A DNA stretch of 38,961 nt from an uncultured Bacteroidales bacterium. Lineage in GTDB: Bacteria; Pseudomonadota; Alphaproteobacteria; Rs-D84; CACZYB01. The stretch spans positions 1 through 38,961 of the forward strand of contig CAZHAL010000001.1 in NCBI GenBank assembly GCA_964530355.1. The letters are read 5' to 3'. Within the stretch, counting starts at the first letter, position 1. Every line of letters begins with the position of its first letter. Below are positions 3,931-34,947 of this stretch, in pieces. The notes below the pieces were generated by a model. It saw only the letters and a program-made list of their open reading frames with translations. It did no database searches and was not told where the DNA came from. The translations under genes were made by a program, and so were the position numbers.

Positions 3931-3931
3931 A

Positions 3932-5446
3932 CTATTCCTCTATATACTTTTTTGCAACATCTTCCGCCAATGTTTTAATTGCATCTTTAAATTCATCTTT
4001 TAATGTCGCCCCGTTATCAATTTCCGTTAACACAGCCTTTATTTCCGCATTCGCCCGTTTAAGGAGTTCCGCTTCCGCATCAGGAATACGTTTAACATCA
4101 ATATCATCAAATACACCTACATTAGTTGCGTAAATAATAACAATTTGTTCCGACGCACGAAGAGGTTGATACTGAGGTTGTTTTAAAACCGCCCTTATCC
4201 GCTCACCTCTTAACAAAGTTTTTCTTGTATCTTCATCAAGCTGAGTTCCGAATTTCGAAAACGCCTCCAATTCTTCAAATTGAGAATACGAAATTTTCAT
4301 ATCGCCCGACACCGCTTTATAAGCCGGAAGCTGAGCCTTTGACCCGACACGGGAAACCGAAATACCTATATTTATCGCTGGTATAATACCCTTTGAAAAC
4401 AAAGTATTAGTTAAAAATATCTGACCGTCGGTAATGGAAATAAGATTCGTCGGAATATACGCCGAAACATTTTCCGCCAACGTTTCACAAATCGGAAGTG
4501 CGGTCAACGACCCCCCGCCATATTCTTTTTTAAGCCTTGTTGAACGCTCCAACAATCTGGAATGCACATAAAATATATCACCGGGGAAAGCCTCACGTCC
4601 AGGTGGGCGTCTTAAAAACAAAGACAACTGCCTGTATGCCTGTGCATGGAAAGTCAAATTATCATAAATAATAAGGACATCTTTACCTTCCTTCTCCATA
4701 AAATATTCAGCCATAGAAGTCGCCGCATACGGTGCCACATACAAAAGCCCCGGGGACTGTTCCCCGCCGGCAACAACGACAATGGTATTTTTCATACAAT
4801 CTTTTTTCTTTAAAACATCTATCACCTTTGCGACACTGTCCGCCCTGCTTCCTATTGCACAATAAACACAAATAACACCTGTATCTTTTTGTGCAAGTAT
4901 AGCATCAACCGCAATCGCAGTTTTTCCCGTCTGCCTGTCCCCAAGGATAAGTTCTCTTTGCCCCCTGCCGATAGGAATAATCGCATCTATTGCTTTAAGT
5001 CCGGTTTGAAGAGGAACCGACACTTCCTGCCTTTCCATAATCTGATGAGCTTCACGCTCTATATTATACCGCTCGGTCGCAACAATCTTTGCCCCGCCGT
5101 CCAAAGGATTCCCAAGGGGATCCACCACACGTCCCAAAAGCGCAGGTCCGACAGGCACATCCGCGATTCGCCCTGTTCTTTTTACCTTTTCCCCTGCCTC
5201 TATATTCTGAGGATTATCAAGAAGGACTATACCCACCGTATCTTCGTTAAGGTTTATAACTATACCAAGACTGTCCTTTATCTCAACAAGCTCATCCATT
5301 TTCACCGAAGACAGCCCCGTCGCTCTGACAATACTGCCTATGACTTCAACAACCTCACCAACCTCTTCCGATACAATATGAGCCTTTGTTTTTTTTGAAA
5401 CAGAACTTACCTCGTTCAAAGTTTTTTTAACCGTTTCCTTTAACAT
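3932..5446 (-). CDS. atpA: ATP synthase alpha subunit
   Basis: Walker A GDRQTGKT, plus ...[20 protein letters not shown]... and ...ITDGQIFL..., all diagnostic alpha-subunit motifs. Confidence 0.95.
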
Positions 5447-5455
5447 ACCCTCCTC

Positions 5456-6250
5456 CTACTTATCCTTTTTCTCAACAACTTTTTCTGTCTTAGTCAAATT
5501 TGCAATCGCATTATCCAAATTCGTTTTAAGTGCGGATATATAAGTATCCATTCCGTATCTGATAAGAAGAGAATCACAAATAACCTCTATCCCGCACAAA
5601 ATAGATAAATCAATTTTAAATTCAACATTACTAATCTTTTTACCGATAAGTTGAGAAAGTGCCGTTTTAATTTTCGCTTCCTCTTTACTCCCGATTTTAA
5701 AAGATGTCGCAACAACAATATGCTTGGATTTATTATAAAATTCATTGATAAGTTCGGATTTTTCAATTTTCCCCTTTGAAATCTTATCAATAAAATTTTC
5801 TAAAATAACCGTTTGAACATCTTCATTCGCCAAATCTTTAAGTGCAGCCGAAACAGTATTCACAATGACATCCCCTGCGATATCGGAAATCGACATACGA
5901 AGAGCTTCCCGCTCCTCTACCAACTGTTTATCAAAAGCCGACTTTTTCGCATTTATTTCGGAATTAAGATATTTCATCAAAAGAGCCTGTTCCTTTTCCG
6001 ACTTCTTATGTGCCTCTGCAATAACATCACTTTTTGCATTTTCCACCTCGGCTATTTTTTTAAGAAGCTGTTTTTTCTCTTTCTCAGCCTCAATCCTGGC
6101 TTCCTCCGCCTCTTTAAGTCGCGATTGTATAGCCTTTTCACGCTTATCCATAGAAGACAGCACCGGAGCAAAAAGATATTTTTTAAGTATCCATACAATA
6201 ACTAAAAAGTTTATAGTCTGAAAAAATACAGTACTCCAATTTATATTCAT
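5456..6250 (-). CDS. atpF: ATP synthase b subunit fused to a delta/OSCP-like C-terminal domain
   Basis: N-terminal TM plus long charged coiled coil typical of subunit b. The C-terminal ~100 aa (VVATSFKIGSKEEAKIKTALSQLIGKK...IDLSILCGIEVICDSLLIRYGMDTYISALKTNL) resemble the delta-subunit C-terminus (D-x-SLIGG...GD-x-x-D-x-S pattern). No separate atpH is present in the operon. Confidence 0.75.
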   Translation of the reverse strand: MNINWSTVFFQTINFLVIVWILKKYLFAPVLSSMDKREKAIQSRLKEAEEARIEAEKEKKQLLKKIAEVENAKSDVIAEAHKKSEKEQALLMKYLNSEINAKKSAFDKQLVEEREALRMSISDIAGDVIVNTVSAALKDLANEDVQTVILENFIDKISKGKIEKSELINEFYNKSKHIVVATSFKIGSKEEAKIKTALSQLIGKKISNVEFKIDLSILCGIEVICDSLLIRYGMDTYISALKTNLDNAIANLTKTEKVVEKKDK

Positions 6251-6281
6251 AATAAATCCCTTACTTTTTCAAAAGCATTTT

Positions 6282-6563
6282 TTATTTTGCAAGTTGTTCG
6301 ACACCATAGTTCCAAAACGGATTACTGAATATCAAAATCATTGAAACCAAAAGTGCATAAATCGCTGTTGATTCAAGCATAGCAAGAGCAACAAACAAAG
6401 TGCTTCTGATACTGCTTGCTTCATCCGGTTGTTGTGCCATAGAAGCCAAAGCCTGTCTAACGGAATTACCTTCCGCAAGTGAAGGACCCAAACCTCCTAT
6501 ACCAACCGCAAACGATGCTCCTAACACAGATGCAACTGCAATCCAAACTAATCCCATATCCAT
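6282..6563 (-). CDS. atpE: ATP synthase c subunit with a Na+-type ion-binding signature
   Basis: 93-aa two-helix hairpin. Loop QQPDEASSIR (compare RQPE). Helix 2 is LAMLESTAIYALLV, giving E64-S65-T66-x-x-Y69. Confidence 0.9.
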   Translation of the reverse strand: MDMGLVWIAVASVLGASFAVGIGGLGPSLAEGNSVRQALASMAQQPDEASSIRSTLFVALAMLESTAIYALLVSMILIFSNPFWNYGVEQLAK

Positions 6564-6598
6564 TTTATACCTTCCTTTCGTTTAGTTATTAAAATTTA

Positions 6599-7369
6599 TC
6601 AAATCCGTGAAAGTTGAAGTCTCATCAACTCTTCCTCCTCAGATTCCGTCGGATTCCCCATACCTGCACCGATATATACCATAGCAAGCACAGAAAATAT
6701 ATATGGCTGTATTGTTCCGGCCAAAAGCCCATAAATATTCACCAACCCCGGTATCACAAGCGGAGCAAGTGCAAATATAATAGTAGCCAACAATCCACCG
6801 CTCATTATGTTTCCGTAAAGCCTTATCGCAAGGGACACCCCGCTTGAAACTTCACTTAAAATATTTATAGGGAACATCACTATATAGGGTTCAAAAAATC
6901 TTTTGAAATAACGAATAACGCCAAACTTTTCCATACCAAAGGTAAACACCGAACACATAACAATAAGTGATAACGCCGCCGTTGTTGAAATTGACGCTGT
7001 CGGAGGTATATACCATTCTACCGCACCATCAACAAAAAACGGTATAGGAAGAAGAGCCGTCCAATTCGCAACCAAAATAAAAATAAATAAACTTCCGACA
7101 AGGGGGATAAACCTATCCGCCTTTCGTCCCATCATAGATTCTATTTGATCTCTGACAAACTTAACAATAACTTCCACACCGTTTTGAAACGGCGACATCA
7201 CAAACGAATAATTGAAATTCCGTGTAAGTCTTTTAAAGAAAATAAAAAGAAATAACATTATTGCCCAGGTTCCGACCAATGTCATATTGATATCAATCGT
7301 AACTTGTCGATTAAATATATTAAGGGGTATTTGATAAAATATTATTTCATCAGGACTAATCTTCATCAT
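6599..7369 (-). CDS. atpB: ATP synthase a subunit
   Basis: Polytopic membrane protein with GVSLAIRLYGNIMSGGLL (conserved Arg motif of subunit a). I moved the start to the ATGATG at 7369 (RBS AAAGGGGG upstream), giving a 14-nt overlap with atpR. The track ORF start at 7429 lies inside atpR. Confidence 0.85.
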   Translation of the reverse strand: MMKISPDEIIFYQIPLNIFNRQVTIDINMTLVGTWAIMLFLFIFFKRLTRNFNYSFVMSPFQNGVEVIVKFVRDQIESMMGRKADRFIPLVGSLFIFILVANWTALLPIPFFVDGAVEWYIPPTASISTTAALSLIVMCSVFTFGMEKFGVIRYFKRFFEPYIVMFPINILSEVSSGVSLAIRLYGNIMSGGLLATIIFALAPLVIPGLVNIYGLLAGTIQPYIFSVLAMVYIGAGMGNPTESEEEELMRLQLSRI

Positions 7370-7679
7370 CCGCCCCCTTTTGAGTTGCAAGTTTTTGTTT
7401 TTCCCGCCGAACGAAAAAATATTTAACAACCAAAAATGTTAAAACCATAAGGGCAAGTTCATCCAACGCCCTATAATATTTAAGCATTAAAAAGAAAAAT
7501 ATTCCCGCAAGTGTAAACCTTATTAAAAACGAAGTATAAAAATAAGTCAGATTACCGAACTTTGAATCATCTTCGGTCATAACTCTGTTCATACCGAATT
7601 TTAACATGGTAAAGTAAATAATACTGAACAAAGCCGTTACAAAAATCACAAATAAATATATATACAAACTTTGCATCAC
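7356..7679 (-). CDS. atpR: AtpR-like small membrane protein of N-ATPase operons
   Basis: 107 aa with three hydrophobic segments, one carrying an intramembrane Arg (FLIRFTLAGIFFFL). Its position between atpQ and atpB matches N-ATPase operon architecture. Confidence 0.55.
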   Translation of the reverse strand: MMQSLYIYLFVIFVTALFSIIYFTMLKFGMNRVMTEDDSKFGNLTYFYTSFLIRFTLAGIFFFLMLKYYRALDELALMVLTFLVVKYFFVRREKQKLATQKGADDED

Positions 7680-8013
7680 TTATACTCCTTATTTATCTTA
7701 TCATTTTCCCGTCTTATCCATAACATGGCATTATAACAACCGAGCAAAATCCCGAACAAAATAAAATATAATGTATAGGATAAATGTTCCGACGGATAAT
7801 GTTCATCAACATACATACCTAAATAAGCGGCAATAATCGTAGGAACCGCCACGCTCCAACCGACAAGTCCGAAAAGAGAAAACGCACTAATCACAAATTT
7901 CCTGCGTCCGCTTACAAAAACTTTTCTATCAATTTTTTTGGAAACATTAACTTGCATATCCTTATCTATTTTAGAACTTTTTTTATTTTCAATATTACCG
8001 CGTCTTACCATTT

Positions 8014-8017
<4 letters not shown>
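7676..8017 (-). CDS. atpQ: AtpQ (AtpI/AtpZ-like, ATPase_gene1 family) membrane protein
   Basis: FGLVGWSVAVPTIIAAYLGMYVDEHYP...YFILFGILLGCYNAMLWIRRE matches the two-TM AtpZ/AtpI-like pattern. It has 4-nt ATGA overlaps with both neighbours. Confidence 0.6.
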
Positions 8018-9865
<1,848 letters not shown>

Positions 9866-10007: not shown

Positions 10008-10655
10008 TTGAAAAAAATAGATGAACAAAGATACTTATGGATTTTAAGAGTCTTCGGGATTTTTATGGTATTAAGCGTAATACTGAATCTCATTCTTATC
10101 TTCTCATTTAACAAAATCGCTCCACAAACAAAATGGGAGGCATTTTTTGTTGAATCCCAAGATGACAACATAGACACCGTATATATACAACGTGCATCAA
10201 ATTTAAACATCTCACAAAATTCTATCGGAAGCCAAATCGCAAAAACTTACATCATTGAATATATTATAGACAGGGAAAGTTTATATCTTAATCCTATAAG
10301 GATGAAAAACCTTTGGGGTCCCGACAGCAACATTTTCTTTTTAAGTTCCGAACAAATTTACAGGGATTTTTACAACAGTCGCAATTTCAAAAACGGGATT
10401 TTAAATCCTAATAAACAAATAATAACCGTATCTGTAAATCCGGACGATGTGCAATACCATTCGACACTTAATTTGTGGGAGGCTTTTGCAACATTGACAA
10501 TAACGGATCAATTCGGACTTAACAAAAAATCCGAAATAAGGAAAATTCAAATAAAGGCAAAATTCCTTCAAACCCCGTATAAAAAGAACTCAAAATCAAT
10601 GTGGAAAAATCCTCTTGGCTTTGTAATTGAGGAGTATAAATATATGGGTATTTAG
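10008..10655 (+). CDS. virB8: Type IV secretion protein VirB8 (TTG start)
   Basis: Short cytoplasmic N-terminus, one TM (VFGIFMVLSVILNLILIF), a periplasmic domain with AKTYIIEYIIDRESLY, and the hallmark C-terminal WKNPLGFVIEEYKY (NPLGF-x-V-x-x-Y). RBS GGAGAGG lies before the TTG. Confidence 0.75.
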   Translation: MKKIDEQRYLWILRVFGIFMVLSVILNLILIFSFNKIAPQTKWEAFFVESQDDNIDTVYIQRASNLNISQNSIGSQIAKTYIIEYIIDRESLYLNPIRMKNLWGPDSNIFFLSSEQIYRDFYNSRNFKNGILNPNKQIITVSVNPDDVQYHSTLNLWEAFATLTITDQFGLNKKSEIRKIQIKAKFLQTPYKKNSKSMWKNPLGFVIEEYKYMGI

Positions 10656-10742: not shown

Positions 10743-12278
10743 ATGAAAAATATTTTTAAAATTTTATCTTTAATAATGATGCTTTTAACCGCACCTGCAT
10801 ATTCTCAGGAAATAATTCCTGGTGTAGGATTCGGAACGCAAAACGCATGGGACAATCCTATGCAAAATATGGGTGAAAATCAAACCAAGCCGGGATTCCA
10901 ACGTATACAATGGGAACCTGGTTCCGTTATGCCGATAAAACTTCGCGACGGTATGTTGACCATTATAAACTTTCCGGAATGGGAAACTATAAAGGATGCC
11001 TATGTCGGGGATAAGGACTTCTTTGACGGTCGTCCGGTTGAAAAAAACACATTTATGATTTCACCTGTTGACGGTCGTGCAATGGCAGATACCAACTTAT
11101 TTATTTTTGGAAGCAGTGGAAATAAATACGTATTCTATTTAAAGTCAGAACCTCTTAACACCGAAAAAATTACCTCTTCTGTAATTGATGTTTCTGTTCC
11201 TTATAAATACAGAAAGGGAAGCAACGGTGGTGCCGCATCCGGCTCATCAAATAACTTTGCCTCATCAAAATCAATAATGGGCGGTCAAAGTTACAGGGAA
11301 ACCGGTGACAGTGATTGGGAAGGTGAAGATTTCGGCTGGATAAAAAGTATCAATGTTGACCCAACCGAATTCAGATTTGATTTGGACGTGTTCGTTCCAA
11401 ATCCTGATGATTACGTAATCGCACCTGAACGTGTATGGCGTGACCAAATCTTTACATACATAGATTTCGGAGAAAAGGCTTTAAATATGAATCAACGCCC
11501 TGTTGTATCCCTTCTTGTCGAAGGTGGCGAAACACCTGTCGGCTCCAGAACAGAAGGTCCGCAAAGCCGTCTTCTTGTAGTAGAAGCAATCGGCGATTTG
11601 GTTTTACGAAACGGTCAAAGAATTGTATGTATAAAACTTCGTTCAAAACCATACTTATTATCTAACCCACCACCTCCACAGGATTTGGTTGCTGTTGCGG
11701 GAAACATAGGCGGTAATGCAAATATGTCCGCAGGATATGGTATGGATATGTCACAATCCTACTATGGATATGATATGACCGGCGGAAGCTATATGTATCC
11801 GCAATCACTACCTTACGGTGCCGGCGCAATGCCAATGGGCTATCCTATGGCAGGCGGATATATGGGTAACGGTGCAATGGGAGGTTCTTCCTACCTAACC
11901 GGTGAAGAAAACGAAATAATATATAATTCACTTCAAGCAAAATCCAAAACAAATGCATCAGTTTTGCCAAACCACTATGTCCCTCTTGTAAAGCAAAACT
12001 CTCAAAATGTAAGTGTTGAAATATTCAAGGGTAAATCAGTATCCGATTTGGAAAACAAATGGCTTGAACTTACCGAAAAACTACCATGGCTTGACGAATA
12101 CACTCCATTCTATTCCGTTGAAACCAGCGGTGTTGATGAAATAGGACAACAAAGATATTATGGCGGAGAATTCTACCGTTTGCGTGTCGGACCATTCTCA
12201 CAGATAGAGGTTGCAGATGAAATTTGTCAGAAACTGTCTCTTCAAAATGTCCCATGTAATGTTGTAAGGACACAATAA
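10743..12278 (+). CDS. virB9: Type IV secretion protein VirB9/TrbG-like with a G/Y/M-rich linker and a C-terminal SPOR domain
   Basis: Signal peptide ...APAYSQE. N-domain QRIQWEPGSVMPIKLRDGMLTIINF...NLFIFGSSGNKYVFYLK. C-domain APERVWRDQIFTYIDFGEK...RPVVSLLVEGGETPV...LVLRNGQRIVCIKL, typical of VirB9. The final ~85 aa, ...FYRLRVGPFSQIEVADEICQKLSLQNVPCNVV, match the SPOR consensus. Confidence 0.75.
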   Translation: MKNIFKILSLIMMLLTAPAYSQEIIPGVGFGTQNAWDNPMQNMGENQTKPGFQRIQWEPGSVMPIKLRDGMLTIINFPEWETIKDAYVGDKDFFDGRPVEKNTFMISPVDGRAMADTNLFIFGSSGNKYVFYLKSEPLNTEKITSSVIDVSVPYKYRKGSNGGAASGSSNNFASSKSIMGGQSYRETGDSDWEGEDFGWIKSINVDPTEFRFDLDVFVPNPDDYVIAPERVWRDQIFTYIDFGEKALNMNQRPVVSLLVEGGETPVGSRTEGPQSRLLVVEAIGDLVLRNGQRIVCIKLRSKPYLLSNPPPPQDLVAVAGNIGGNANMSAGYGMDMSQSYYGYDMTGGSYMYPQSLPYGAGAMPMGYPMAGGYMGNGAMGGSSYLTGEENEIIYNSLQAKSKTNASVLPNHYVPLVKQNSQNVSVEIFKGKSVSDLENKWLELTEKLPWLDEYTPFYSVETSGVDEIGQQRYYGGEFYRLRVGPFSQIEVADEICQKLSLQNVPCNVVRTQ

Positions 12279-12292
12279 AAAGGGGTTCCCTC

Positions 12293-14407
12293 ATGGCAAT
12301 ATTTAAAAAACAAAAGGCAGGCGCAACTCAAACTTCATCACCATCAGATGAAAACGAACAAATGTTGCCTGCCAATAAAAAAAGTAAATCTGAAATTACA
12401 ACAAAACAAACAAATACAATATTGCTTATCATCGCATTCGTTATGCTTGGTATTTTTGTTGTCGGCGCAATATTTACAACAAATAAAAATCAAGCAGATA
12501 TACAGGCGATGGAAAACTCCATACCCGAAGAAACAACTACTACAACAACAACCGTTACAACAGAAACTTTTACATATATTTCACCTGTTGTAAGCTCTGA
12601 TCCGCAAACCGTAAAATTTGATAATATACTTGTCGGAACGGAAAGCTTTAACTCTATCATGATTTCCGTTGCAAACAGTCCGATAAAAATAACTGACATA
12701 AAATTCTCAACACAAGTTGACGGTCTTTCCTATGATGACGATTGCACACAAAGGGAATCTATCACACCGGAATCAAATTGCATAATAAACCTTATTTGGA
12801 CACCGACAAAAGTTGAAAACAAAAATATCTTTATGCTTCTTACCTATAATGATCCGGACAGCGAAGACATAACCACATCAGCACAAAGCGAACGTGGAAA
12901 ATCAAGAACGTATAAAATAAACATCTCTCTTTCCTCAATGGAAAACAAAACATCTGTTGAAACATATGATGAGGAAGAAGAGGACGAATTTTACGATGAT
13001 GACGAAGATGAAGAATACGAAGAAGAGGAGGAGGAAGAGGAAGATTTCCAACCTGCGACAAGACGTGACGTTCGAAATTTCACAAACACTGTTGCACCAG
13101 TAATGAATCAAGCACAGGAAACAACAAAAACAATATACCCTTCCGATTGCAAAAAATATGCAAGCAAGGCTTACGACTTTTCGGGAACATTCATAGGTTG
13201 GGTTCAAACAAATAACGATGTCTTTGCACCAAATTGTTCAAAGGTCATAGGTTCTCTTCAGGAGGACGGCATGGTCCTTGAAATAGGGACCGGAAAACTT
13301 ATCGGAAAGGGTGCCGTTTTTGATAAAAAGAAATCAGAGGAAAAAAGAATTGAACTTACTCTTCCGCTTTTAGAGGAGGTAATGGAAACCGTAACATCCG
13401 AAAACTTTAATCCCAGTATAGAGGATATATCCGCAAACCGTAGTGCAGTTAAAACAGAAGGATACGGCGGTAAAGATGCATCAAATTACAGTAACGAAGA
13501 TTTATACAAGGCCGACGATCCACTAAAAATAATCAGCCGACAGAAAAATTCCCTTATTCCGTTTACTATCACAGAGCCTACCCAACTGTCATCTATGCCA
13601 AAGGATGAACGTTATGTCCTTCGCCAATCAAAACCGATACCTGCGGTCCTTAACCGACCTATATATTTCGGAAGTGCGCGTGAAAATTCTCGTGCCGGCG
13701 AAGACGGGACTATATATTCGGCACATGAAGGAAACGCAGTTGCCACTGTCGAAAGGAATGTTTACGGCGGTGACGGTCGAACAATAATAATCCCTGCCGG
13801 ATCTCAACTGATTGGAACTGCTGATGAACCTGCCGGTACCGGATTACAGGAAACCGAAAAAATAAATATAACCTGGACAAGACTTATTCGTCCGGACGGC
13901 GCAGAATTCAACCTTGACGGTCTTACCGCATTTACTGGCGATGCCCAAGGTCGAGAAGGCGTCCCCGGAAAAAACGATACGGAATATATGCGTGATTTAT
14001 TCATAAAACCGCTTCTTTATTCTGCTCTTCCTGTTGCAATGGAAGCAATATTCCCATCAACATCATCCCTTGTTACCCGTGTCAAAAGGACTGACGGAAC
14101 ATATCAAACTATCGATGATGCAATAACAGAGGAGGAAGGAGATTACGGCTTTGATTGGAATGAATCAACCTATGATCTTAATATGTCATCAAAGGATAAA
14201 ATGAAAGCCGAAATCCAACAAAATTGGAAAACCGGTATGCAAAAACTTATTGACCAATCTGCAAACCAATCAATACCGTTTACAGTTGCAGCCGGAACCC
14301 GCATTATGGTATTTTTAAACAAAGATATTATGCTTCGTATCGAAGACGATATGACAGAAGCATTAAGCAATGCTTCTACTGAAGCAGAGGGCGGTGCCGG
14401 AGAATAA
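12293..14407 (+). CDS. virB10: Type IV secretion protein VirB10/TrbI-like with N-terminal insertions
   Basis: One TM (ILLIIAFVMLGIFVVGAIF). The C-terminal TrbI/VirB10 domain reads VERNVYGGDGRTIIIPAGSQLIGTADEP...INITWTRLIRPDGAEFNLDG...GDAQGREGVPGKNDTEY.... Confidence 0.8.
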   Translation: MAIFKKQKAGATQTSSPSDENEQMLPANKKSKSEITTKQTNTILLIIAFVMLGIFVVGAIFTTNKNQADIQAMENSIPEETTTTTTTVTTETFTYISPVVSSDPQTVKFDNILVGTESFNSIMISVANSPIKITDIKFSTQVDGLSYDDDCTQRESITPESNCIINLIWTPTKVENKNIFMLLTYNDPDSEDITTSAQSERGKSRTYKINISLSSMENKTSVETYDEEEEDEFYDDDEDEEYEEEEEEEEDFQPATRRDVRNFTNTVAPVMNQAQETTKTIYPSDCKKYASKAYDFSGTFIGWVQTNNDVFAPNCSKVIGSLQEDGMVLEIGTGKLIGKGAVFDKKKSEEKRIELTLPLLEEVMETVTSENFNPSIEDISANRSAVKTEGYGGKDASNYSNEDLYKADDPLKIISRQKNSLIPFTITEPTQLSSMPKDERYVLRQSKPIPAVLNRPIYFGSARENSRAGEDGTIYSAHEGNAVATVERNVYGGDGRTIIIPAGSQLIGTADEPAGTGLQETEKINITWTRLIRPDGAEFNLDGLTAFTGDAQGREGVPGKNDTEYMRDLFIKPLLYSALPVAMEAIFPSTSSLVTRVKRTDGTYQTIDDAITEEEGDYGFDWNESTYDLNMSSKDKMKAEIQQNWKTGMQKLIDQSANQSIPFTVAAGTRIMVFLNKDIMLRIEDDMTEALSNASTEAEGGAGE

Positions 14408-14421
14408 AAGGAAAAACATAA

Positions 14422-14784
14422 ATGAAAAAATTCTTAACATTAACTTTAACGATTTTTACATTACTTTCAACAAACGCAAACGCAACAACTTTTATGTCCG
14501 CGTTTGAGGAAATCCCTCTTCAAAACGGACTTAGCGAAGAAGAACCTTTTTCCTATGATACAGAGGAAATAAGGATAATTGAACAATATGTTTCAAGTGC
14601 CGATATGAGCATTGATGAATTTTTAAAATTTTACCGAACAACACTAAAATCATTGGGCTGGAATGAAATTTCCCATAATGATAAAAATACCGTTTTCAAA
14701 CGCGAAGATGAATCATTAACACTTACAATAGAATCAAGTTCTCCGCTTGTTGTTTTATTTTCACTTAAACCTTACGGTAAATAA
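14422..14784 (+). CDS. Small secreted protein of unknown function, last gene of the virB8-B10 operon
   Basis: Signal peptide MKKFLTLTLTIFTLLSTNANA and RBS AAAGGAAAAA. I recognised no family. Confidence 0.5.
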   Translation: MKKFLTLTLTIFTLLSTNANATTFMSAFEEIPLQNGLSEEEPFSYDTEEIRIIEQYVSSADMSIDEFLKFYRTTLKSLGWNEISHNDKNTVFKREDESLTLTIESSSPLVVLFSLKPYGK

Positions 14785-15750
14785 TTAAGCAATATCGGTA
14801 ATCATACGAATATTACCCTCTCTGCCTATTTGAACGACACGAAGTTTTTGCCTCATATTCTCCAAAGTCTTTTGCTGATCAAGTTCTGGAAACGTATGCA
14901 AAATCCGATCAATAAAAGCCTTATACGCCCCCTCAACCGATTCGGCATGAATTGTTGCATAGAAATGCTTATGCCCTGTTCCCATAAGCTCCCATATCGC
15001 ACCGGCATTTTCGGTTGAAATTTCCCCACCCATAATAGCATCGGGAGTCATACGCACAACCAAATCAATCACATCTTTATACGTGAACATATTTGTTTGC
15101 CCGGTTCGTGACAAAAGCAAATGAATATGATTCTTCTGCGGAACAATCAACTCCCTTGAATCTTCAATCGTAATCACACGAAGCGAAGGACTAAGTAACT
15201 TTAAAATATTATTTAAAAAAGTTGTTTTACCGGTCGACGTAGCACCGCTTATCAAAATATGATCACCCCTGGAGATAGCATCCATCAAACGCTGATACGG
15301 ATCACTTGCCAACTCAACATTTTCCGCTGACAGATGTTGAAGCTCCGCCCCCTTCACCAAACCGTAATCGGCAAAATCAAAATCCACTGTATCCTTTTTC
15401 GTTCTGATGGCAAGGGCAATTCCTCCCTCTATATCATCATTATCATAAAGGACATTTTTACCGGCAATTCCCGAAAATCTATGATCCCCTGGAAGTGTGG
15501 CATACACCACCGGAATACCGGTAGAAGGATCAAACGGCACTTCATAAGTATTTGCAATAATATTCATAATATCGGTTAAATAATCCTTTGATAAATGCTT
15601 ATCTTTTTCCATCACCCAAGGAATTTCACGCCGTCCGCGAAGTCTTAACCAAACCTCCCCGGCATGATTAACGGCGACTTCTTCTATATTGGATTGCATA
15701 TACCAATTTGCAAGATATTTAAGCGTTGAATTTAAAACCTCATTAGCCAT
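14785..15750 (-). CDS. virB11: Type IV secretion ATPase VirB11
   Basis: Walker A ISGATSTGKTTFLNNIL, plus ITIEDSRELIV and PDAIMGGEI motifs of the VirB11/GspE-like traffic ATPases. I placed the start at ATG 15750 (MANEVLNS, RBS AAGAGGAGAG). The longer track ORF extends into the upstream promoter region. Confidence 0.85.
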   Translation of the reverse strand: MANEVLNSTLKYLANWYMQSNIEEVAVNHAGEVWLRLRGRREIPWVMEKDKHLSKDYLTDIMNIIANTYEVPFDPSTGIPVVYATLPGDHRFSGIAGKNVLYDNDDIEGGIALAIRTKKDTVDFDFADYGLVKGAELQHLSAENVELASDPYQRLMDAISRGDHILISGATSTGKTTFLNNILKLLSPSLRVITIEDSRELIVPQKNHIHLLLSRTGQTNMFTYKDVIDLVVRMTPDAIMGGEISTENAGAIWELMGTGHKHFYATIHAESVEGAYKAFIDRILHTFPELDQQKTLENMRQKLRVVQIGREGNIRMITDIA

Positions 15751-15875
15751 TAACTCTCTCCTCTTTAAATAAATTACCTCAAATAAAGAAAATTTACAAT
15801 ACATTTTTATGATTTTATGCTTTCGCTTTCCCATTTTTTTTGATATAATAGCCTTTATAATATTAAGGGATAAAA

Positions 15876-16769
15876 ATGATTGCAAAAAGAACAAAAACTT
15901 TAACGGAACAGGAAATAAAGGAGATTCATTCTACTATTGATATAATTGACATATCACTTTATGACCTTATAAAAAAGCGATGCGAACTTATATCCGAGCT
16001 TAATAAAAACACAAACACAACCCTACATGATTTATCAAAATCCCTTTCCCTTACAATCGAAAAAATCACAAACGAAAGAAAATACGACAAATCAACTTTG
16101 TCAACGACCATAGGTTTAATAAAACTTCTTGAAATAACATCAAGGAATATGGAAATAGGCATTTCATTAAAAAAGGAAAAAGTATCCGAACTTGAATCCA
16201 TACTTTCACACATAAAAAACTTATTCCCGTTATTCGATAATATAAAGTATAGGGTTTTCCCGAAATACGGCGATATAATCAAAAACATAACCTCAACAAA
16301 TAACCTTATCGCATCGATTCCTGCTACACATACAACACCAAAGGACGTATGGTGGATGGGAATGCTTGCCCCGGAAAAACAAAACATAAAAATCATAAAC
16401 AAGATTCCGTTGACCGAAGAAAATGATAAAATACCGGAATACCTTATCACAAACACAAATAAATACTGGAATTTCGACCGAAGCGTAATAGTAATTGCGA
16501 CATCGGAAACCGTAACACATACATGGTTAAAGGGCGCCCTACACCGCCTTCAAATCCCATTATACGAGGTAATAGATTCCACCGCGGTATTCAATGGAAC
16601 CGTGCTACATCTTGTTGAAATATCATATCCTATACAATCGGAAACCGATAAAATCTTTTCACTTAACGAAACAATAAACGGAATAAATATCCAAATCGCA
16701 GGATATCTTGGCGGATATTTTCTATCCATCATTGACAAAGATAAGATACTATCTTTCAAAACAATGTAA
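15876..16769 (+). CDS. Hypothetical protein with weak chorismate mutase / prephenate dehydratase-ACT-like features
   Basis: The N-terminus LTEQEIKEIHSTIDIIDISLYDLIKKRCELISEL resembles the first helix of AroQ chorismate mutases. The C-terminus ...IQIAGYLGGY resembles the end of PheA ACT domains. The rest is highly diverged. Confidence 0.4.
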   Translation: MIAKRTKTLTEQEIKEIHSTIDIIDISLYDLIKKRCELISELNKNTNTTLHDLSKSLSLTIEKITNERKYDKSTLSTTIGLIKLLEITSRNMEIGISLKKEKVSELESILSHIKNLFPLFDNIKYRVFPKYGDIIKNITSTNNLIASIPATHTTPKDVWWMGMLAPEKQNIKIINKIPLTEENDKIPEYLITNTNKYWNFDRSVIVIATSETVTHTWLKGALHRLQIPLYEVIDSTAVFNGTVLHLVEISYPIQSETDKIFSLNETINGINIQIAGYLGGYFLSIIDKDKILSFKTM

Positions 16770-17926: not shown

Positions 17927-18769
17927 ATGCAAAGAGGGGTCAAATTTTTATCAATCATATTTTCTGTTTTCCATTTTTCCTTAATGGGAAATGTATTATA
18001 TGCACAATCTTCAAAGATAAATATGTCCTATACCGCTCCGATAGGTATGCAAACATTAAACCCAAACACTCCGGAAAATAAAAACCTTTACAATAAAAAT
18101 TTTTCCGGCGCCGCACACAGCATTATCTCCGAAATCTTCAAAAATACTAATGTAAATTTAAACTACATCCCCTATGATAATTACAACTCTGCATTACAAG
18201 CATCTCAGTTACACCTGTCACAAAACACCCTCGATTTTATAATAGGCATAACATTTGATGAAAATACACTGAAATACCTGAACTATATCCCGCACCCTAT
18301 TTACACGGATAACATAGTCATCATAGTCGATAATTCCCACATAAAGGATAAATCCATACTGACAAAGGATTTATACGAAACTATATCCAACCTGTCACGA
18401 AACAACATTGCAATAACTATTGATAACTTGGATATGAACCTTCACCCCTTTCAATCATTTAAGGAAAAAGACGTCGCCACGGCAATGGAAACGGTATTTA
18501 ACAAAAATACATTCCTGATACTTCCTTTTGAAATGGCACTCAGTTATTTACAGGACAATAAATCAAATCCAAAGGTAAAGACCTTAAAGATTTTAAAATA
18601 CCCAAATCAGGTCAATTACTTTATCGCCCTTAATAAAAACAAAACACAGGAAAAAATCAAACACGAAGGAGAAATGTATCTGCCCGAAGATTTTATAAAA
18701 ACCCGATTAAACGATATGACCGATTCCGGACAACTCCAACAAATAATAGGCGAATTTAAAACAAAGTAA
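17927..18769 (+). CDS. Secreted hypothetical protein (possibly a degenerate family-3 solute-binding fold)
   Basis: Signal peptide ...MGNVLYAQS. It lies 3 nt downstream of the lptF/G stop. The resemblance to solute-binding proteins (LDFIIGITFDENTLKYLNYIPHPIY) is weak. Confidence 0.45.
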   Translation: MQRGVKFLSIIFSVFHFSLMGNVLYAQSSKINMSYTAPIGMQTLNPNTPENKNLYNKNFSGAAHSIISEIFKNTNVNLNYIPYDNYNSALQASQLHLSQNTLDFIIGITFDENTLKYLNYIPHPIYTDNIVIIVDNSHIKDKSILTKDLYETISNLSRNNIAITIDNLDMNLHPFQSFKEKDVATAMETVFNKNTFLILPFEMALSYLQDNKSNPKVKTLKILKYPNQVNYFIALNKNKTQEKIKHEGEMYLPEDFIKTRLNDMTDSGQLQQIIGEFKTK

Positions 18770-18820
18770 ACATTTTACTTTTAAAAAAAATATATTATAA
18801 TGTTTTCAAAGGAGAAGATT

Positions 18821-19609
18821 TTGCTTAAAAAGTTACTGACATGTCTGTTTATTCTAACAAGCTCCATCACCTATGCACAGGAAATAATGGAAATGGATTC
18901 ATACGAAGATGATGTCGAATTCATTGGTGAGGATGGAGAGGAAGAAGAATACGAAGATTATGTCGAAGAGGGACAAGAAGAATACGTTGTATCAAACTTA
19001 AACGAACGGGTAAAGGGTTTCGATATCGCCGGCGTAATGTTGGAAATGAACTATAAAAAGGTGCGTGAGGTATTAAAGGAACGCAAATACAAATTCATTG
19101 ATGTTGAATACAAAATTCCCGAATACTTTACTTTTAATTACGATTCTATCTGTCGTTCACATAACGTCTTCATCCCTGAAAATTTAAAGGCTTGTATCAC
19201 AGGTCTTGCAAAAAAGGATAAGATGCAATATGTCTATAAGGCATCATTTAAAAAACACGATACTAACGAAGATATCAATGTTTATTTCACAGGTCCTTTG
19301 ACCGATAACAAAGTTTATAAAATAGAATACACAAATGACGTAAATAAAAAATACGGTGATGCAAAAAATTTCCAATATCAAAGGGAGGAACGTCGCCGTG
19401 CATTTTGGTATTTCGTTCTTTCAAAATACGGCGAACCGAACGTAGAACCTAATCAATGGGTTTTGGATATGGAGGAAGAATTGCAAACAAGCCTTACCGC
19501 ACAATATGGTAAACTTACACTTGAAAACAAAAAACAATTCGCATTTGATGTATTGGAAACAAACAAAGAAGCTCGTCGCCAATTCAAATATACCAACTAT
19601 ACATTCTAA
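18821..19609 (+). CDS. Secreted hypothetical protein with an acidic N-terminal tract
   Basis: I prefer the TTG start at 18821 (AAGGAG 6 nt upstream), giving signal peptide MLKKLLTCLFILTSSITYAQE. The track ATG at 18800 is an alternative. An acidic run DDVEFIGEDGEEEEYEDYVEEGQEEY follows. Confidence 0.5.
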   Translation: MLKKLLTCLFILTSSITYAQEIMEMDSYEDDVEFIGEDGEEEEYEDYVEEGQEEYVVSNLNERVKGFDIAGVMLEMNYKKVREVLKERKYKFIDVEYKIPEYFTFNYDSICRSHNVFIPENLKACITGLAKKDKMQYVYKASFKKHDTNEDINVYFTGPLTDNKVYKIEYTNDVNKKYGDAKNFQYQREERRRAFWYFVLSKYGEPNVEPNQWVLDMEEELQTSLTAQYGKLTLENKKQFAFDVLETNKEARRQFKYTNYTF

Positions 19610-19665: not shown

Positions 19666-20073
19666 CTAATCCCAACCTCGGGTATCTTGCAATCCTTTAT
19701 ATGTATCTTGTATATCATTTCCACGATTTGGATCTGCCAAATATGAAACGATAAATCCTGCAACACCAAGAAGAACAAGTGCAACAATAAGATAAAGTAA
19801 TTTTTTCCAATCAATAGAACCGTCTTGGATAGCAGTCCATGCATAAGCCAAGAAAGCGAATGCAGCACAAACGAACAAAGCATTTCTTGTCCATGCAAAT
19901 AAATTACTTCCGCGTTGTAAGAATTTTTGGAACGGACCGGTCAAACCTTCTGTAACAATTCTTTCACCATCTTGCTGCGCAAAAACATCAGCAGGAACAA
20001 CAAACATAAACGCACATAAAATAGCAAGACAAACAAGTGTTGATTTCTTTGTTAAAAAATTAAATAATGACAT
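19666..20073 (-). CDS. VirB2/TrbC-like T4SS pilin candidate
   Basis: 135 aa. It has a long signal peptide ending VFAQ/Q, then two hydrophobic helices (ALFVCAAFAFLAYAWTAI and YLIVALVLLGVAGFIVSYL) separated by a short polar loop. This is the VirB2/TrbC propilin architecture. RBS GGAGAAAAAG. Confidence 0.5.
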   Translation of the reverse strand: MSLFNFLTKKSTLVCLAILCAFMFVVPADVFAQQDGERIVTEGLTGPFQKFLQRGSNLFAWTRNALFVCAAFAFLAYAWTAIQDGSIDWKKLLYLIVALVLLGVAGFIVSYLADPNRGNDIQDTYKGLQDTRGWD

Positions 20074-23151: not shown

Positions 23152-23251
23152 TTTTTCCTCCATTTCTTTTCTTGGGTTAATTATTTTTAATTTCGGGAGG
23201 GAGGAAGCAGAAGACTATGAACCAAAAAAACAACTTCCTCCCGCAAATTAA

Positions 23252-34817: not shown

Positions 34818-34947
34818 TTGAAACCTCCGTTAGTTAGTTGAACACAATTTTATTTATAATAGATTTAAGGCATAATTTCAACATAAATTATTTTTGATTT
34901 TTCTCTCTTTATATGATATAATAAATATTATTCGGAGGATTTATATT

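What the first reader, a model, noticed from the sequence alone, without database searches (positions are those of the whole stretch)
12006..12269. VirB9 fused to a C-terminal SPOR (septal peptidoglycan-binding) domain
Seen: after complete VirB9 N- and C-domains, the protein continues into ~85 aa ending ...GGEFYRLRVGPFSQIEVADEICQKLSLQNVPCNVVRTQ. This matches the SPOR consensus (y-r-v-r-v-G-p-f-x-s-x-x-x-A-x-x-x-x-x-x-L and a terminal hydrophobic strand).

Established knowledge:
- SPOR domains bind denuded glycan strands and target proteins to division septa.
- Canonical VirB9 ends with the domain that contacts VirB7 and VirB10 in the outer-membrane core complex.
- Peptidoglycan handling in T4SS is normally provided by a separate VirB1 transglycosylase.

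Inference: the fusion could anchor or position the core complex on peptidoglycan, possibly at septa or poles. It could also compensate for a missing VirB1 or VirB7 interaction. I am not aware of this fusion being a described feature of model T4SSs.
Basis: partly seen in the sequence, partly recalled or inferred. Interest (0 to 1): 0.65.

Follow-up and report, generated by a model that had tools for sequence, protein, structure and literature searches.

The report
VirB9 secretion-channel protein with SPOR tail
A core outer-membrane protein of a type IV secretion system (VirB9) in uncultured Alphaproteobacteria, many from animal guts, carries a conserved cell-wall-binding (SPOR-type) domain on a long flexible tether, which probably ties the machine to the cell wall, but a key sugar-contacting residue is changed, so it may not bind the usual septal target.

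Summary
ORF 10743-12278 (+) is one uninterrupted 511-aa protein. It has a signal peptide, VirB9 N- and C-terminal domains (Pfam CagX, E=7.6e-19), a ~115-residue poorly conserved G/A/P/S-rich linker predicted to be mostly disordered, and a C-terminal SPOR domain (residues 418-511).

Evidence for SPOR:
- Pfam PF05036 scores above its gathering cut-off, although only on the second half of the model.
- 33 of 35 diverse family tails hit SPOR and nothing else.
- The AlphaFold model is β-α-β-β-α-β, and its best PDB matches by TM-score are the RlpA, CwlC and DedD SPOR domains.
- The nearest non-VirB9 relatives are full-length Pfam SPOR proteins.

The fusion is not an artefact. All of the 120 best-scoring 90%-identity clusters listed carry it, down to 41% identity. 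The SPOR segment has dN/dS of about 0.02-0.03, as low as the VirB9 domains.

The fusion sits in chromosomal virB8-virB9-virB10 cassettes of uncultured Alphaproteobacteria and was found in none of 72,556 plasmids.

The main caveat is that the canonical glycan-contacting glutamine (FtsN Q251) is an invariant glutamate here, and Q251E is the laboratory mutation that weakens denuded-glycan binding. Anchoring to peptidoglycan is likely. Canonical septal targeting is doubtful. This is a new variant of a known kind, of moderate interest.

The parts
10743..12278 (+). virB9-SPOR gene, 511 aa plus stop codon, one uninterrupted ORF
   Evidence: ORF; Pfam CagX and SPOR; all 120 best-scoring clusters listed carry the tail, down to 41% identity
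10743..10805 (+). Sec-type signal peptide (residues 1-21, MKNIFKILSLIMMLLTAPAYS|QE), read from the sequence
   Evidence: sequence; N-terminal helix 2-16. The cleavage site is inferred by eye, not by a predictor.
10881..11195 (+). VirB9 N-terminal beta-sandwich domain (residues 47-151), the I-layer domain
   Evidence: pLDDT about 92-95; TrwF NTD 7o3t_B TMt 0.81, 8rt6_v TMt 0.85; Pfam CagX
11196..11327 (+). Low-complexity G/S/N-rich insert between the two VirB9 domains (residues 152-195), poorly conserved and low-confidence in the model
   Evidence: pLDDT below 50 for residues 160-221; mean column identity 0.39; length 36-49 aa across the family
11328..11651 (+). VirB9 C-terminal domain (residues 196-303), the O-layer domain that binds VirB7 and VirB10 in model systems; the most conserved part of the protein
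   Evidence: column identity 0.87; TraO CTD 2ofq TMt 0.74, Xanthomonas VirB9 CTD 2n01 TMt 0.66, 3jqo_B; dN/dS 0.012-0.014
11652..11993 (+). Flexible linker (residues 304-417). It is G/Y/S/M-rich in this protein and G/A/P/S/N-rich across the family. Length is 74-126 aa (median 107) in homologs. It contains one short predicted helix (387-397).
   Evidence: pLDDT about 30-40 for residues 302-383; column identity 0.34; composition; dN/dS 0.11-0.19
11964..11990 (+). Conserved LP-x4-P-[LI]-[VI] motif (residues 408-416; L408, P409 and P414 conserved in at least 90% of sequences) just upstream of the SPOR fold; function unknown
   Evidence: nearly invariant columns
11994..12275 (+). SPOR-family domain (residues 418-511; fold core 422-510), β-α-β-β-α-β. 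Invariant residues are E426, Y478, R479, L480, R481, P484, C495, C505 and R509.
   Evidence: Pfam; model, core pLDDT about 90; RlpA 6i09 TMt 0.72-0.74; CwlC 1x60 TMt 0.74-0.75; invariant columns; dN/dS 0.02-0.03
12018..12020 (+). Codon of E426, an invariant Glu at the position of the canonical SPOR glycan-contacting Gln (FtsN Q251, P. aeruginosa RlpA Q270)
   Evidence: alignments and counts; role of the Gln; effect of Q251E
12177..12185 (+). Codons of R479-L480-R481, the basic patch on strand 3. R479 aligns with FtsN R285, which the literature equates with P. aeruginosa RlpA R309. R481, two residues later, is taken as the equivalent of R311 by spacing alone.
   Evidence: hhalign; MAFFT with E. 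coli FtsN, DamX, DedD and RlpA; role of R302, R309 and R311
10008..10655 (+). virB8, directly upstream
   Evidence: Pfam VirB8, E=1e-9
12293..14407 (+). virB10 (704 aa), directly downstream. The TrbI domain covers residues 473-680. The long N-terminal half has poly-Thr and acidic tracts.
14422..14784 (+). 120-aa secreted ORF, conserved immediately after virB10 in all 18 gut-clade loci; no known domain
14785..15894 (-). VirB11-like T2SSE-family ATPase, convergent with the cassette
19666..20073 (-). TrbC/VirB2-type pilin gene, a separate islet about 4 kb away

Best explanation
The gene encodes the VirB9 subunit of a chromosomal, Rickettsiales-vir-homolog-like type IV secretion system. A SPOR-family domain has been fused permanently to its C-terminus through a poorly conserved tether of about 115 residues that is predicted to be mostly disordered.

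Shown here:
- the domain architecture;
- homology and fold of both parts;
- strong purifying selection on the SPOR part;
- conservation of the fusion across a deep family.

Inferred:
- VirB9 is present in 14-16 copies per outer-membrane core complex in model systems. The machine would therefore carry a ring of tethered SPOR domains hanging into the periplasm.
- These domains bind the peptidoglycan sacculus under the core complex and anchor or brace the channel on the wall. DotK and Dis1 in Dot/Icm and the AMIN domains of PilQ play this role in other machines.
- Binding probably uses the exposed face of the beta-sheet, where the invariant residues E426, R479, R481 and R509 lie.
- The binding chemistry is not canonical. 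The Gln that hydrogen-bonds the MurNAc lactyl carboxylate and the GlcNAc N-acetyl group in RlpA and FtsN is an invariant Glu here. The domain therefore probably has reduced or altered specificity for denuded glycan, and it is not safe to assume septal targeting.
- C495 (helix 2) and C505 (start of strand 4) probably form a periplasmic disulfide that stabilises the fold.
For: - Architecture.
- VirB9 fold: (6gyb_B E=1.5e-15; 8rt6_B E=2e-14; TrwF NTD TMt 0.81-0.85; TraO CTD TMt 0.74).
- SPOR homology: 26.7-30.1 bits against a cut-off of 21; 33 of 35 family tails hit SPOR only, best E=3.7e-9; the tail profile retrieves 360 proteins from 1.84 billion; ten of ten sampled non-VirB9 hits are full-length Pfam SPOR, E=1e-19 to 1e-30.
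- SPOR fold: (RlpA-glycan complex 6i09 TMt 0.72, CwlC 1x60 TMt 0.74, DedD 6ztg; other hits have TM about 0.3).
- Constraint: nine invariant tail residues across 43 sequences down to 41% identity; dN/dS 0.02-0.03 for SPOR against 0.11-0.19 for the linker.
- Tether.
- Basic patch retained:.
- Gln replaced by Glu: E in 16 of 18 aligned VirB9 fusions, against Q in 226 and E in 24 of 289 neighbouring SPOR domains; role of the Gln; effect of Q251E.
- Precedent for peptidoglycan-binding modules on envelope-spanning machines: DotK and Dis1; PilQ AMIN domains.
Against: - No binding experiment exists.
- The family profile finds no PDB SPOR sequence. hhalign against FtsN aligns only the second half, with 13% probability. 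Foldseek E-values are modest (7.7e-3), as is usual for a domain of about 80 residues.
- The E426 substitution could mean that the ligand is not peptidoglycan at all.
- The position of the VirB9 C-terminus relative to the outer membrane in this system is not known.
- R479 is replaced by His or Tyr in 7 of 22 representative fusions, including the divergent-clade member P0150; only R481 is universal.
- The disulfide was not checked, because no model coordinates were available.
Confidence: 0.6

Rival explanations
1. Canonical SPOR function. The tail binds denuded, amidase-processed glycan strands at the septum. This recruits VirB9, and hence the nascent core complex, to division sites, so that machines are built into new poles without needing a dedicated VirB1 hydrolase. 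This is analogous to PilQ AMIN domains in type IVa pili.
For: - SPOR homology and fold.
- The basic patch R479/R481, taken as equivalent to RlpA R309/R311 (R479 by alignment to FtsN R285, R481 by spacing), is retained.
- No lytic transglycosylase domain was found among the 45 larger window ORFs scanned.
- There is a precedent in PilQ.
- About 8% of ordinary SPOR domains near this family also carry Glu at the Gln position, so Glu may be tolerated. Q251E reduces FtsN binding but does not abolish it.
Against: - E426 replaces the most conserved glycan-contacting residue, and Q251E is the published loss-of-binding mutation.
- A carboxylate cannot donate the two hydrogen bonds made by the Gln amide, and it would repel the lactyl carboxylate that defines denuded glycan (inference).
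- The first half of the Pfam SPOR model is not matched.
Confidence: 0.2
2. A repurposed SPOR fold. The domain no longer binds peptidoglycan. It binds another ligand, such as a T4SS partner protein, an effector or chaperone, or a different envelope polymer, and the tether lets it reach that partner.
For: - The invariant Glu at the Gln position.
- The family-specific invariant set Y478, L480, P484, C495, C505 and R509, plus a conserved LP-x4-P-L-V motif upstream.
- No sequence hit to any solved SPOR domain.
- The RNP-like fold is generic; S6 and PII-like folds appear lower in the fold search.
Against: - The nearest relatives by sequence are all ordinary SPOR proteins, some of which share the Glu.
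- The Arg-rich sheet face typical of the glycan cleft is kept.
- No candidate partner is evident. The ORF following virB10 is conserved only in the gut clade, whereas the tail is conserved throughout.
Confidence: 0.13
3. A surface-exposed tail. The VirB9 C-terminus passes to the cell surface, and the SPOR domain acts outside the cell, for example as an adhesin for glycans on target cells.
For: Only the length of the tether, and my recollection that early work on pKM101 TraO suggested surface accessibility of the VirB9 C-terminal region. That recollection was not checked here.
Against: - In the matched core-complex structures, the VirB9 CTD is a periplasmic-side beta-sandwich under the outer membrane (established knowledge; fold matches).
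- The two conserved Cys and the SPOR family's universal periplasmic or cell-wall role favour a periplasmic location.
Confidence: 0.04
4. An artefact: a frameshift, a mis-assembly, or a read-through of two separate genes.
For: None found.
Against: - A single ORF here and in 18 species-representative genomes.
- All of the 120 best-scoring clusters listed, from four independent sources, carry the tail.
- Codon-level purifying selection runs across the whole frame.
Confidence: 0.01

Closest known systems
Canonical VirB9 / TraO / TrwF / CagX (outer-membrane core complex subunit of type IVA secretion systems; Pfam PF03524)
   Same: - Signal peptide.
- N-terminal (I-layer) and C-terminal (O-layer) beta-sandwich domains.
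- The gene lies between virB8 and virB10.
   Different: - About 210 extra C-terminal residues (linker plus SPOR).
- A 36-49 aa low-complexity insert between the two VirB9 domains.
- It scores far below the NCBIfam VirB9 equivalog cut-off (52 against 217.7 bits).
- No plasmid VirB9/TrbG has the tail.
SPOR-domain proteins FtsN, DamX, DedD, RlpA and CwlC (Pfam PF05036)
   Same: - β-α-β-β-α-β fold.
- The Y-R-x-[RQ]-x-G-P strand-3 signature.
- An Arg patch on the sheet.
- A Cys at the FtsN C312 position.
   Different: - The strand-1 Gln is an invariant Glu.
- The likely disulfide partner lies in helix 2, not in strand 1 as in FtsN.
- There is a longer loop between strands 2 and 3.
- It is attached to a secretion-channel subunit rather than to a divisome protein, hydrolase or amidase.
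DotK and Dis1 (Lpg0657) of the Legionella Dot/Icm type IVB outer-membrane core
   Same: A peptidoglycan-binding module that is part of a T4SS outer-membrane core complex.
   Different: They are separate proteins with OmpA-like domains, not a SPOR domain fused to the VirB9/DotH-type subunit, and the system is type IVB.
PilQ secretin AMIN domains (type IVa pilus machine)
   Same: The outer-membrane channel subunit itself carries a peptidoglycan-binding domain. That domain anchors the machine and recruits it to septal and polar peptidoglycan.
   Different: - A different domain family (AMIN).
- N-terminal rather than C-terminal.
- A different machine.
- Septal binding is shown experimentally for PilQ but not here.
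Rickettsiales vir homolog (rvh) T4SS
   Same: - Chromosomal, split into islets among housekeeping genes.
- The virB8-virB9-virB10 core is kept together.
- A divergent VirB9-SPOR clade shows virB8 - small ORF - virB8 - virB9, as in Rickettsia islet C.
   Different: - Gillespie et al. 2009 was consulted only for gene order, so whether RvhB9 carries any SPOR tail was not checked; from my own recollection none is described.
- In the window, virB8 is single and virB11 is inverted.
- Membership of the rvh lineage was not tested phylogenetically.

Membership tests
SPOR domain (Pfam PF05036) | Score above the Pfam gathering threshold | tested here: met
   26.7 bits for the full protein and 30.1 bits for the tail alone, against a cut-off of 21. 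33 of 35 family tails hit SPOR and no other family.
SPOR domain (Pfam PF05036) | Match over the whole ~76-position domain model | tested here: inconclusive
   Only model positions 36-76 are matched. hhalign against FtsN covers only the second half, with 13% probability. The PDB profile search finds no SPOR sequence. The first half is bridged through full-length SPOR relatives.
SPOR domain (Pfam PF05036) | β-α-β-β-α-β (RNP-like) fold with a four-stranded antiparallel sheet | tested here: met
   The AF2 model has strands 19-27, 52-58, 73-82 and 103-107 and helices 30-49 and 85-97 (tail numbering), with core pLDDT about 90. Best TM-scores are RlpA 6i09 (0.72-0.74) and CwlC 1x60 (0.74-0.75).
SPOR domain (Pfam PF05036) | Conserved strand-1 Gln that contacts the glycan (FtsN Q251, DamX Q351, RlpA Q270) | tested here: not met
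   Glu at this position: E426 is invariant in 43 of 43 sequences. In the 50%-identity representatives it is E in 16 of 18 aligned, with one D and one Q. MAFFT places it in the Q column of E. coli FtsN, DamX, DedD and RlpA.
SPOR domain (Pfam PF05036) | Basic patch on the sheet that receives the MurNAc lactyl carboxylate (FtsN R285; RlpA R302, R309, R311) | tested here: met
   R479 aligns with FtsN R285 (literature equivalent of P. aeruginosa RlpA R309); R481 is taken as the R311 equivalent by spacing. R481 is conserved in 22 of 22 representatives. R479 is R in 15, H in 6 and Y in 1.
SPOR domain (Pfam PF05036) | Binds denuded glycan strands and localises to septa | not testable with these tools
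   This needs sacculus pull-down, ITC and localisation experiments.
VirB9 / TrbG / CagX (Pfam PF03524) | Pfam score above the gathering threshold with full model coverage | tested here: met
   68.7 bits against a cut-off of 34.2, covering model positions 3-196 of 198.
VirB9 / TrbG / CagX (Pfam PF03524) | Two beta-sandwich domains matching the I-layer NTD and O-layer CTD of solved core complexes | tested here: met
   6gyb_B E=1.5e-15; 8rt6_B E=2e-14; 7o3t_B TMt 0.81; 2ofq TMt 0.74.
VirB9 / TrbG / CagX (Pfam PF03524) | Gene neighbourhood with virB8 and virB10 | tested here: met
   virB8 lies upstream and virB10 downstream in the window, in a distant family member and in the divergent clade.
P-type conjugative VirB9 equivalog (NCBIfam TIGR02781) | Score above the equivalog cut-off | tested here: not met
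   52 bits against a cut-off of 217.7. It is a divergent VirB9, not the conjugative-plasmid equivalog.
Rickettsiales vir homolog (rvh)-type T4SS | Chromosomal islets among housekeeping genes, with virB8-B9-B10 kept together | tested here: met
   In the window the cassette lies between an ATPase operon and lptF/G, with virB2 about 4 kb away. In L019 it lies between the rpoBC/ribosomal genes and yidC.
Rickettsiales vir homolog (rvh)-type T4SS | Duplicated virB8/virB9 with virB7 upstream of virB8b; virB6 expansion; virD4 after virB11 | tested here: inconclusive
   Not seen in the window. The divergent clade (L026) has virB8 - small ORF - virB8 - virB9. virB4, virB6 and virD4 lie outside the sequence available.

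The most novel reading that the evidence does not exclude
The Glu-for-Gln SPOR domain is a specificity switch. It would recognise a peptidoglycan chemotype other than classical denuded glycan, for example glycan carrying a positive or hydrogen-bond-donating group such as N-deacetylated sugars, or glycan ends made by a particular hydrolase. A ring of 14-16 such tethered domains would then pre-position or lock an rvh-like T4SS at a defined wall site, such as new poles or a hydrolase-opened gap. That would make wall chemistry a spatial cue for T4SS assembly in a large, uncultured alphaproteobacterial lineage.
Probability: 0.15. Interest if true: 0.7.

Novelty: new variant of a known kind. Interest (0 to 1): 0.45.

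Why it matters
How type IV secretion systems are fitted into and held in the peptidoglycan layer is only partly understood, and for type IVA systems it is usually attributed to a separate VirB1 hydrolase.

Here the core channel subunit itself carries a wall-binding module. Selection on that module is as strong as on the channel domains, across a deep family of chromosomal T4SSs in uncultured Alphaproteobacteria from human, ruminant and termite guts and from other metagenomes whose source was not determined.

This gives three things:
- a natural test case for peptidoglycan anchoring of a type IVA core complex;
- a natural Q-to-E variant of the SPOR glycan cleft for probing SPOR specificity;
- a simple sequence marker (VirB9 plus the YRLR-GP...C...C-VVR-Q tail) for this T4SS lineage in metagenomes.

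It does not overturn any model. It extends the known theme of peptidoglycan-binding modules on envelope-spanning machines to VirB9.

Tried and rejected
1. Profile search of the tail alignment against PDB sequences found no SPOR hit. The full-length family profile found no PDB hit at E<=0.01. The single-sequence VirB9 part gave only a weak TrwF hit (E=0.3). Sequence-level links to solved structures are therefore too weak, and I used fold comparison instead.
2. hhalign of the tail profile against the FtsN SPOR domain aligned only the second half, at 13% probability. I used it only for residue mapping, and corroborated the mapping with MAFFT plus bridging sequences.
3. Plasmid survey: 12 plasmid VirB9/TrbG genes match residues ~20-325 only, and the tail alone gives no hit. 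I rejected the idea that this is a conjugative-plasmid feature.
4. Literature searches returned no description of the fusion as far as I checked: 'VirB9' with 'SPOR domain' gave no paper, and for the other queries ('type IV secretion'/'T4SS' with 'SPOR domain'; 'VirB9' with 'peptidoglycan-binding domain') I judged hits by titles and abstracts and read three of them.
5. I looked for a VirB7-like lipoprotein ORF or a VirB1-like transglycosylase in the window. I found none, but a 39-kb window cannot show genomic absence.
6. The artefact or frameshift explanation is rejected.
7. Cluster look-up of the divergent fusions gave only the label 'Alphaproteobacteria bacterium', so no finer taxonomy was obtained.
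8. The C495-C505 disulfide could not be checked, because the tools do not return model coordinates.
Full report
**1. The observation**

Pfam places a CagX/VirB9 domain at residues 52-298. It covers model positions 3-196 of 198, with E=7.6e-19 and 68.7 bits against a cut-off of 34.2. Pfam places a SPOR domain at residues 471-509, with E=7.4e-6 and 26.7 bits against a cut-off of 21. The isolated tail scores 30.1 bits.

The SPOR match is above threshold, but it covers only the second half of the model (positions 36-76). The first half therefore needed separate evidence.

**2. Is the tail really a SPOR domain?**

Four independent lines say yes.

- **Pfam on relatives.** I aligned 35 diverse tails of the family, down to 35% identity to the query tail. 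33 of them hit SPOR on their own and hit no other Pfam family; the best E-value is 3.7e-9.
- **Predicted topology.** An AlphaFold2 model of residues 404-511 has core pLDDT of about 90. Its topology is β-α-β-β-α-β.
- **Fold search.** Against PDB, the matches with the best TM-scores are the P. aeruginosa RlpA SPOR domain bound to denuded glycan (6i09; TMt 0.72, rmsd 3.1 Å), the B. subtilis CwlC SPOR domain (1x60; TMt 0.74, rmsd 2.3 Å) and DedD (6ztg). The remaining hits (ribosomal S6, PII-like proteins) have TM of about 0.3 and rmsd of 7-10 Å. The same SPOR matches recur when the full-length model is searched.
- **Reverse search.** A profile of the tail searched against 1.84 billion representative proteins returns 360 hits at E<=1e-3. 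The non-VirB9 hits are multi-SPOR proteins. Ten of the ten I sampled are full-length Pfam SPOR matches, with E between 1e-19 and 1e-30.

Negative results are also on record. The family profile finds no solved SPOR sequence in PDB. hhalign against E. coli FtsN aligns only the second half, at low probability. This is therefore a divergent SPOR subtype, not a textbook one.

**3. Is the VirB9 part complete?**

Yes. The full-length model gives the following layout:

| Residues | Feature | Model confidence |
|---|---|---|
| 2-16 | signal-peptide helix | - |
| 47-151 | VirB9 N-terminal beta-sandwich | pLDDT above 90 |
| 160-221 | low-complexity insert | pLDDT below 50 |
| ~215-298 | VirB9 C-terminal sandwich | pLDDT about 70 |
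| 302-417 | low-confidence linker with one short helix (387-397) | pLDDT about 30-40 over 302-383 |
| 422-510 | SPOR fold | pLDDT about 90 |

Foldseek matches the first half to Xanthomonas VirB9 (6gyb_B, E=1.5e-15) and full-length R388 TrwF (8rt6_B, E=2e-14). It also matches the TrwF I-layer domain (TMt 0.81-0.85), the pKM101 TraO CTD bound to VirB7 (2ofq, TMt 0.74), DotH and CagX.

In a weak, non-significant alignment (E=0.3), R388 TrwF ends about 30 residues after the equivalent of residue 297. On that basis roughly 185 residues lie beyond a canonical VirB9 C-terminus.

NCBIfam's VirB9 equivalog model is matched far below its cut-off, at 52 against 217.7 bits. This is a divergent VirB9, not the plasmid-conjugation equivalog.

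**4. Is the fusion real and under selection?**

- A search of 5.8 billion protein clusters found 1,825 homologs. All of the 120 best-scoring clusters listed carry the conserved tail ...YRLR[IV]GP...A..[LI]C..L....C.V[VI]R.Q, down to 41% identity; 110 of them are 484-527 aa, and the shortest are truncated at the N-terminus. They come from four independent sources.
- Across 43 representatives, nine tail residues are invariant: E426, Y478, R479, L480, R481, P484, C495, C505 and R509.
- Mean column identity is 0.60 for SPOR, 0.34 for the linker, 0.87 for the VirB9 CTD and 0.68 for the NTD.
- Nei-Gojobori estimates against the three closest species give dN/dS of 0.02-0.03 for SPOR. This compares with 0.03-0.04 for the NTD, 0.012-0.014 for the CTD and 0.11-0.19 for the linker. 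dS is about 1, so these values are approximate.
- The linker varies from 74 to 126 aa (median 107) and is rich in G, A, P, S, N, T, M and Y.

A frameshift or mis-assembly explanation is excluded.

**5. Where does it occur?**

Eighteen GTDB species representatives carry close relatives. All are uncultured MAGs, most labelled Alphaproteobacteria or Rickettsiales bacterium (a few only 'bacterium' or 'proteobacterium', one 'Bacteroidales'). Those whose sources I recognise come from animal guts: Hadza human gut, rumen (RUG), water deer rectum and termite gut. My guess that these are the GTDB order RF32 and allied gut lineages comes from memory and was not tested.

A larger sister group at about 41-43% identity comes from other metagenomes whose environment I could not establish. 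There the gene sits in a virB8 - virB9-SPOR - virB10 cassette between rpoBC/ribosomal-protein genes and yidC.

A more divergent clade (484-621 aa) has the order virB8 - small Cys-containing ORF - virB8 - virB9-SPOR - two giant repeat proteins - virB11. That order recalls Rickettsia islet C, where virB7 lies immediately upstream of virB8b.

At 50% clustering, 22 of the top 150 tail-profile hits contain a VirB9 domain, and a further ~26 are short proteins, many of them probably fragments of such fusions.

None of 72,556 plasmids encodes the fusion. Twelve plasmid VirB9/TrbG genes match residues ~20-325 only, and the tail alone gives no hit.

In the window the cassette is chromosomal:
- An ATPase operon lies upstream.
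- lptF/G, fabZ, lpxD, skp, bamA and rseP lie downstream.
- A VirB11-like ATPase is convergent with the cassette.
- A VirB2-type pilin gene lies about 4 kb away.

**6. The key deviation**

In the RlpA-glycan crystal structure, the side chains that contact the glycan are Q270, R302 and R309, and R311 completes the basic patch with them. Q270 is the only one highly conserved among SPOR domains. It donates hydrogen bonds to the MurNAc lactyl carboxylate and to the GlcNAc N-acetyl carbonyl. It is equivalent to FtsN Q251, and R309 is equivalent to FtsN R285 (PMC6895207).

I mapped these residues onto the family as follows.

- **R479 and C505.** hhalign aligns R479 with FtsN R285, F477 with W283, the GP motif with GP, and C505 with FtsN C312.
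- **E426, first alignment.** I aligned authentic E. coli FtsN, DamX, DedD and RlpA SPOR sequences, translated from MG1655, with bridging SPOR domains and VirB9 tails. MAFFT puts E426 in the column of the conserved Gln in all four E. coli proteins.
- **E426, second alignment.** A reference SPOR HMM built without any VirB9 tails places FtsN Q251 at the same position. At that position the nearest ordinary SPOR domains have Q in 226 of 289 and E in 24 of 289. The VirB9 fusions have E in 16 of 18 aligned, D in one and Q in one.

Q251E is the substitution reported to reduce septal localisation and denuded-glycan binding of the FtsN SPOR domain. It is used as the binding-defective allele (bioRxiv 10.1101/2024.05.13.594014).

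The basic patch is retained. R481 is universal. R479 is R in 15, H in 6 and Y in 1 of the 22 representatives.

All 236 neighbouring non-VirB9 SPOR domains matched by the tail profile, and all the VirB9 fusions, share the two Cys. This defines a two-Cys SPOR subfamily. FtsN instead pairs C312 with C252 in strand 1. A C495-C505 disulfide (helix 2 to strand 4) is my inference.

**7. Mechanism**

- **Shown.** The architecture, the homology and fold of both parts, the selective constraint, the distribution, and the Gln-to-Glu change.
- **Inferred from established T4SS structure.** VirB9 is present in 14-16 copies per outer-membrane core complex. The CTD sits in the O-layer under the outer membrane.
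- **Inferred from the linker.** A mostly disordered tether of about 107 residues has a contour length of roughly 35-40 nm and a likely end-to-end distance of several nanometres. That is enough to reach the peptidoglycan layer beneath the complex.

The most economical function is a multivalent peptidoglycan anchor for the core complex. This parallels the OmpA-like DotK and Dis1 in the Dot/Icm core and the AMIN domains of the PilQ secretin, which bind peptidoglycan, anchor the secretin and recruit the pilus machine to division sites.

Because of E426, I do not accept canonical denuded-glycan or septal targeting as the default. I rank the explanations as follows:
- peptidoglycan anchoring with non-canonical or weakened glycan recognition: 0.6;
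- canonical septal targeting: 0.2;
- a repurposed, non-peptidoglycan ligand: 0.13;
- a surface-exposed tail: 0.04;
- an artefact: 0.01.

**8. VirB1 or VirB7 compensation**

This cannot be decided from the window. No lytic-transglycosylase domain was found among the 45 larger ORFs scanned, and no small lipoprotein ORF lies in the short gaps flanking virB8. However, such systems are scattered around the chromosome. The divergent clade keeps a VirB7-candidate ORF alongside its VirB9-SPOR gene, which argues against a simple replacement of VirB7.

**9. Novelty and verdict**

The two-domain architecture is visible in precomputed Pfam annotations, so databases contain it implicitly. I found no paper describing it as far as I checked: no paper holds both 'VirB9' and 'SPOR domain', and for the other four queries I judged hits by titles and abstracts and read three of them. 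It is also absent from the model T4SSs and plasmids checked.

It is a new variant of a known kind: a peptidoglycan-binding module on an envelope-spanning machine, here fused to VirB9. The natural Q-to-E cleft variant adds a further, unexpected feature. Interest is moderate (0.45).

Noticed in passing
window 2977-9853 (-): The ATP synthase operon has the gene order beta, epsilon, AtpI-like (PF09527, 113 aa), a 107-aa membrane ORF, a, c (93 aa), b (264 aa, with a weak OSCP/delta match), alpha, gamma. From memory, this is the order described for N-type (Na+-translocating) ATPase operons (atpDCQRBEFAG), not the standard F-type order.
   Followed up: partly
window 12293-14407 (+): VirB10 is unusually long (704 aa). 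The TrbI domain occupies only residues 473-680. The N-terminal half has a TM segment, a poly-Thr run and a long Glu/Asp-rich acidic tract. In a distant family member, VirB10 is 832 aa.
   Followed up: partly
window 14422-14784 (+): A 120-aa ORF with a signal peptide and no Pfam or NCBIfam hit is conserved immediately after virB10 in all 18 gut-clade loci (50-79% identity). It is absent from the sister clade (L019). It is a candidate lineage-specific T4SS accessory protein.
   Followed up: partly
L026 9075-9275 and 11452-21429: In the divergent VirB9-SPOR clade, a 62-66 aa Cys-containing ORF lies between two virB8 paralogs, the same position as the Rickettsia virB7 candidate. The gene after virB9 is a 1563-aa protein with a VirB10-like N-terminal TM segment. 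It contains dozens of G-x-[IV]-I-G-x-x-x-x-D-G-x-V-x-D repeats. A 1749-aa ORF follows it, and then virB11. Neither giant ORF has a recorded Pfam hit.
   Followed up: no
window 11196-11327 (+), residues 152-195 of VirB9: A G/S/N-rich low-complexity insert of 36-49 aa lies between the VirB9 NTD and CTD. It is present throughout the family and poorly conserved, and it has no counterpart in the matched model VirB9 structures.
   Followed up: partly
window 11964-11990 (+), residues 408-416: A nearly invariant L-P-x4-P-[LI]-[VI] motif lies in the otherwise unconserved linker, just upstream of the SPOR fold. Its function is unknown.
   Followed up: no
L019 20495-21539 (-): The same genome as a distant VirB9-SPOR also encodes a DD-carboxypeptidase (PF00768) with a C-terminal SPOR domain. 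SPOR is therefore also used in ordinary cell-wall enzymes in this lineage.
   Followed up: no
window 19666-20073 (-), 20826-21785 (+), 22402-23163 (-): A TrbC/VirB2-type pilin gene forms a separate islet. Nearby are a PAS-GGDEF diguanylate cyclase and a Gly_rich_2 domain protein. Several neighbouring ORFs have no Pfam hit: 15876-16769, 17927-18769, 18800-19609, 26360-27259, 31409-32984 and 34894-37514.
   Followed up: no
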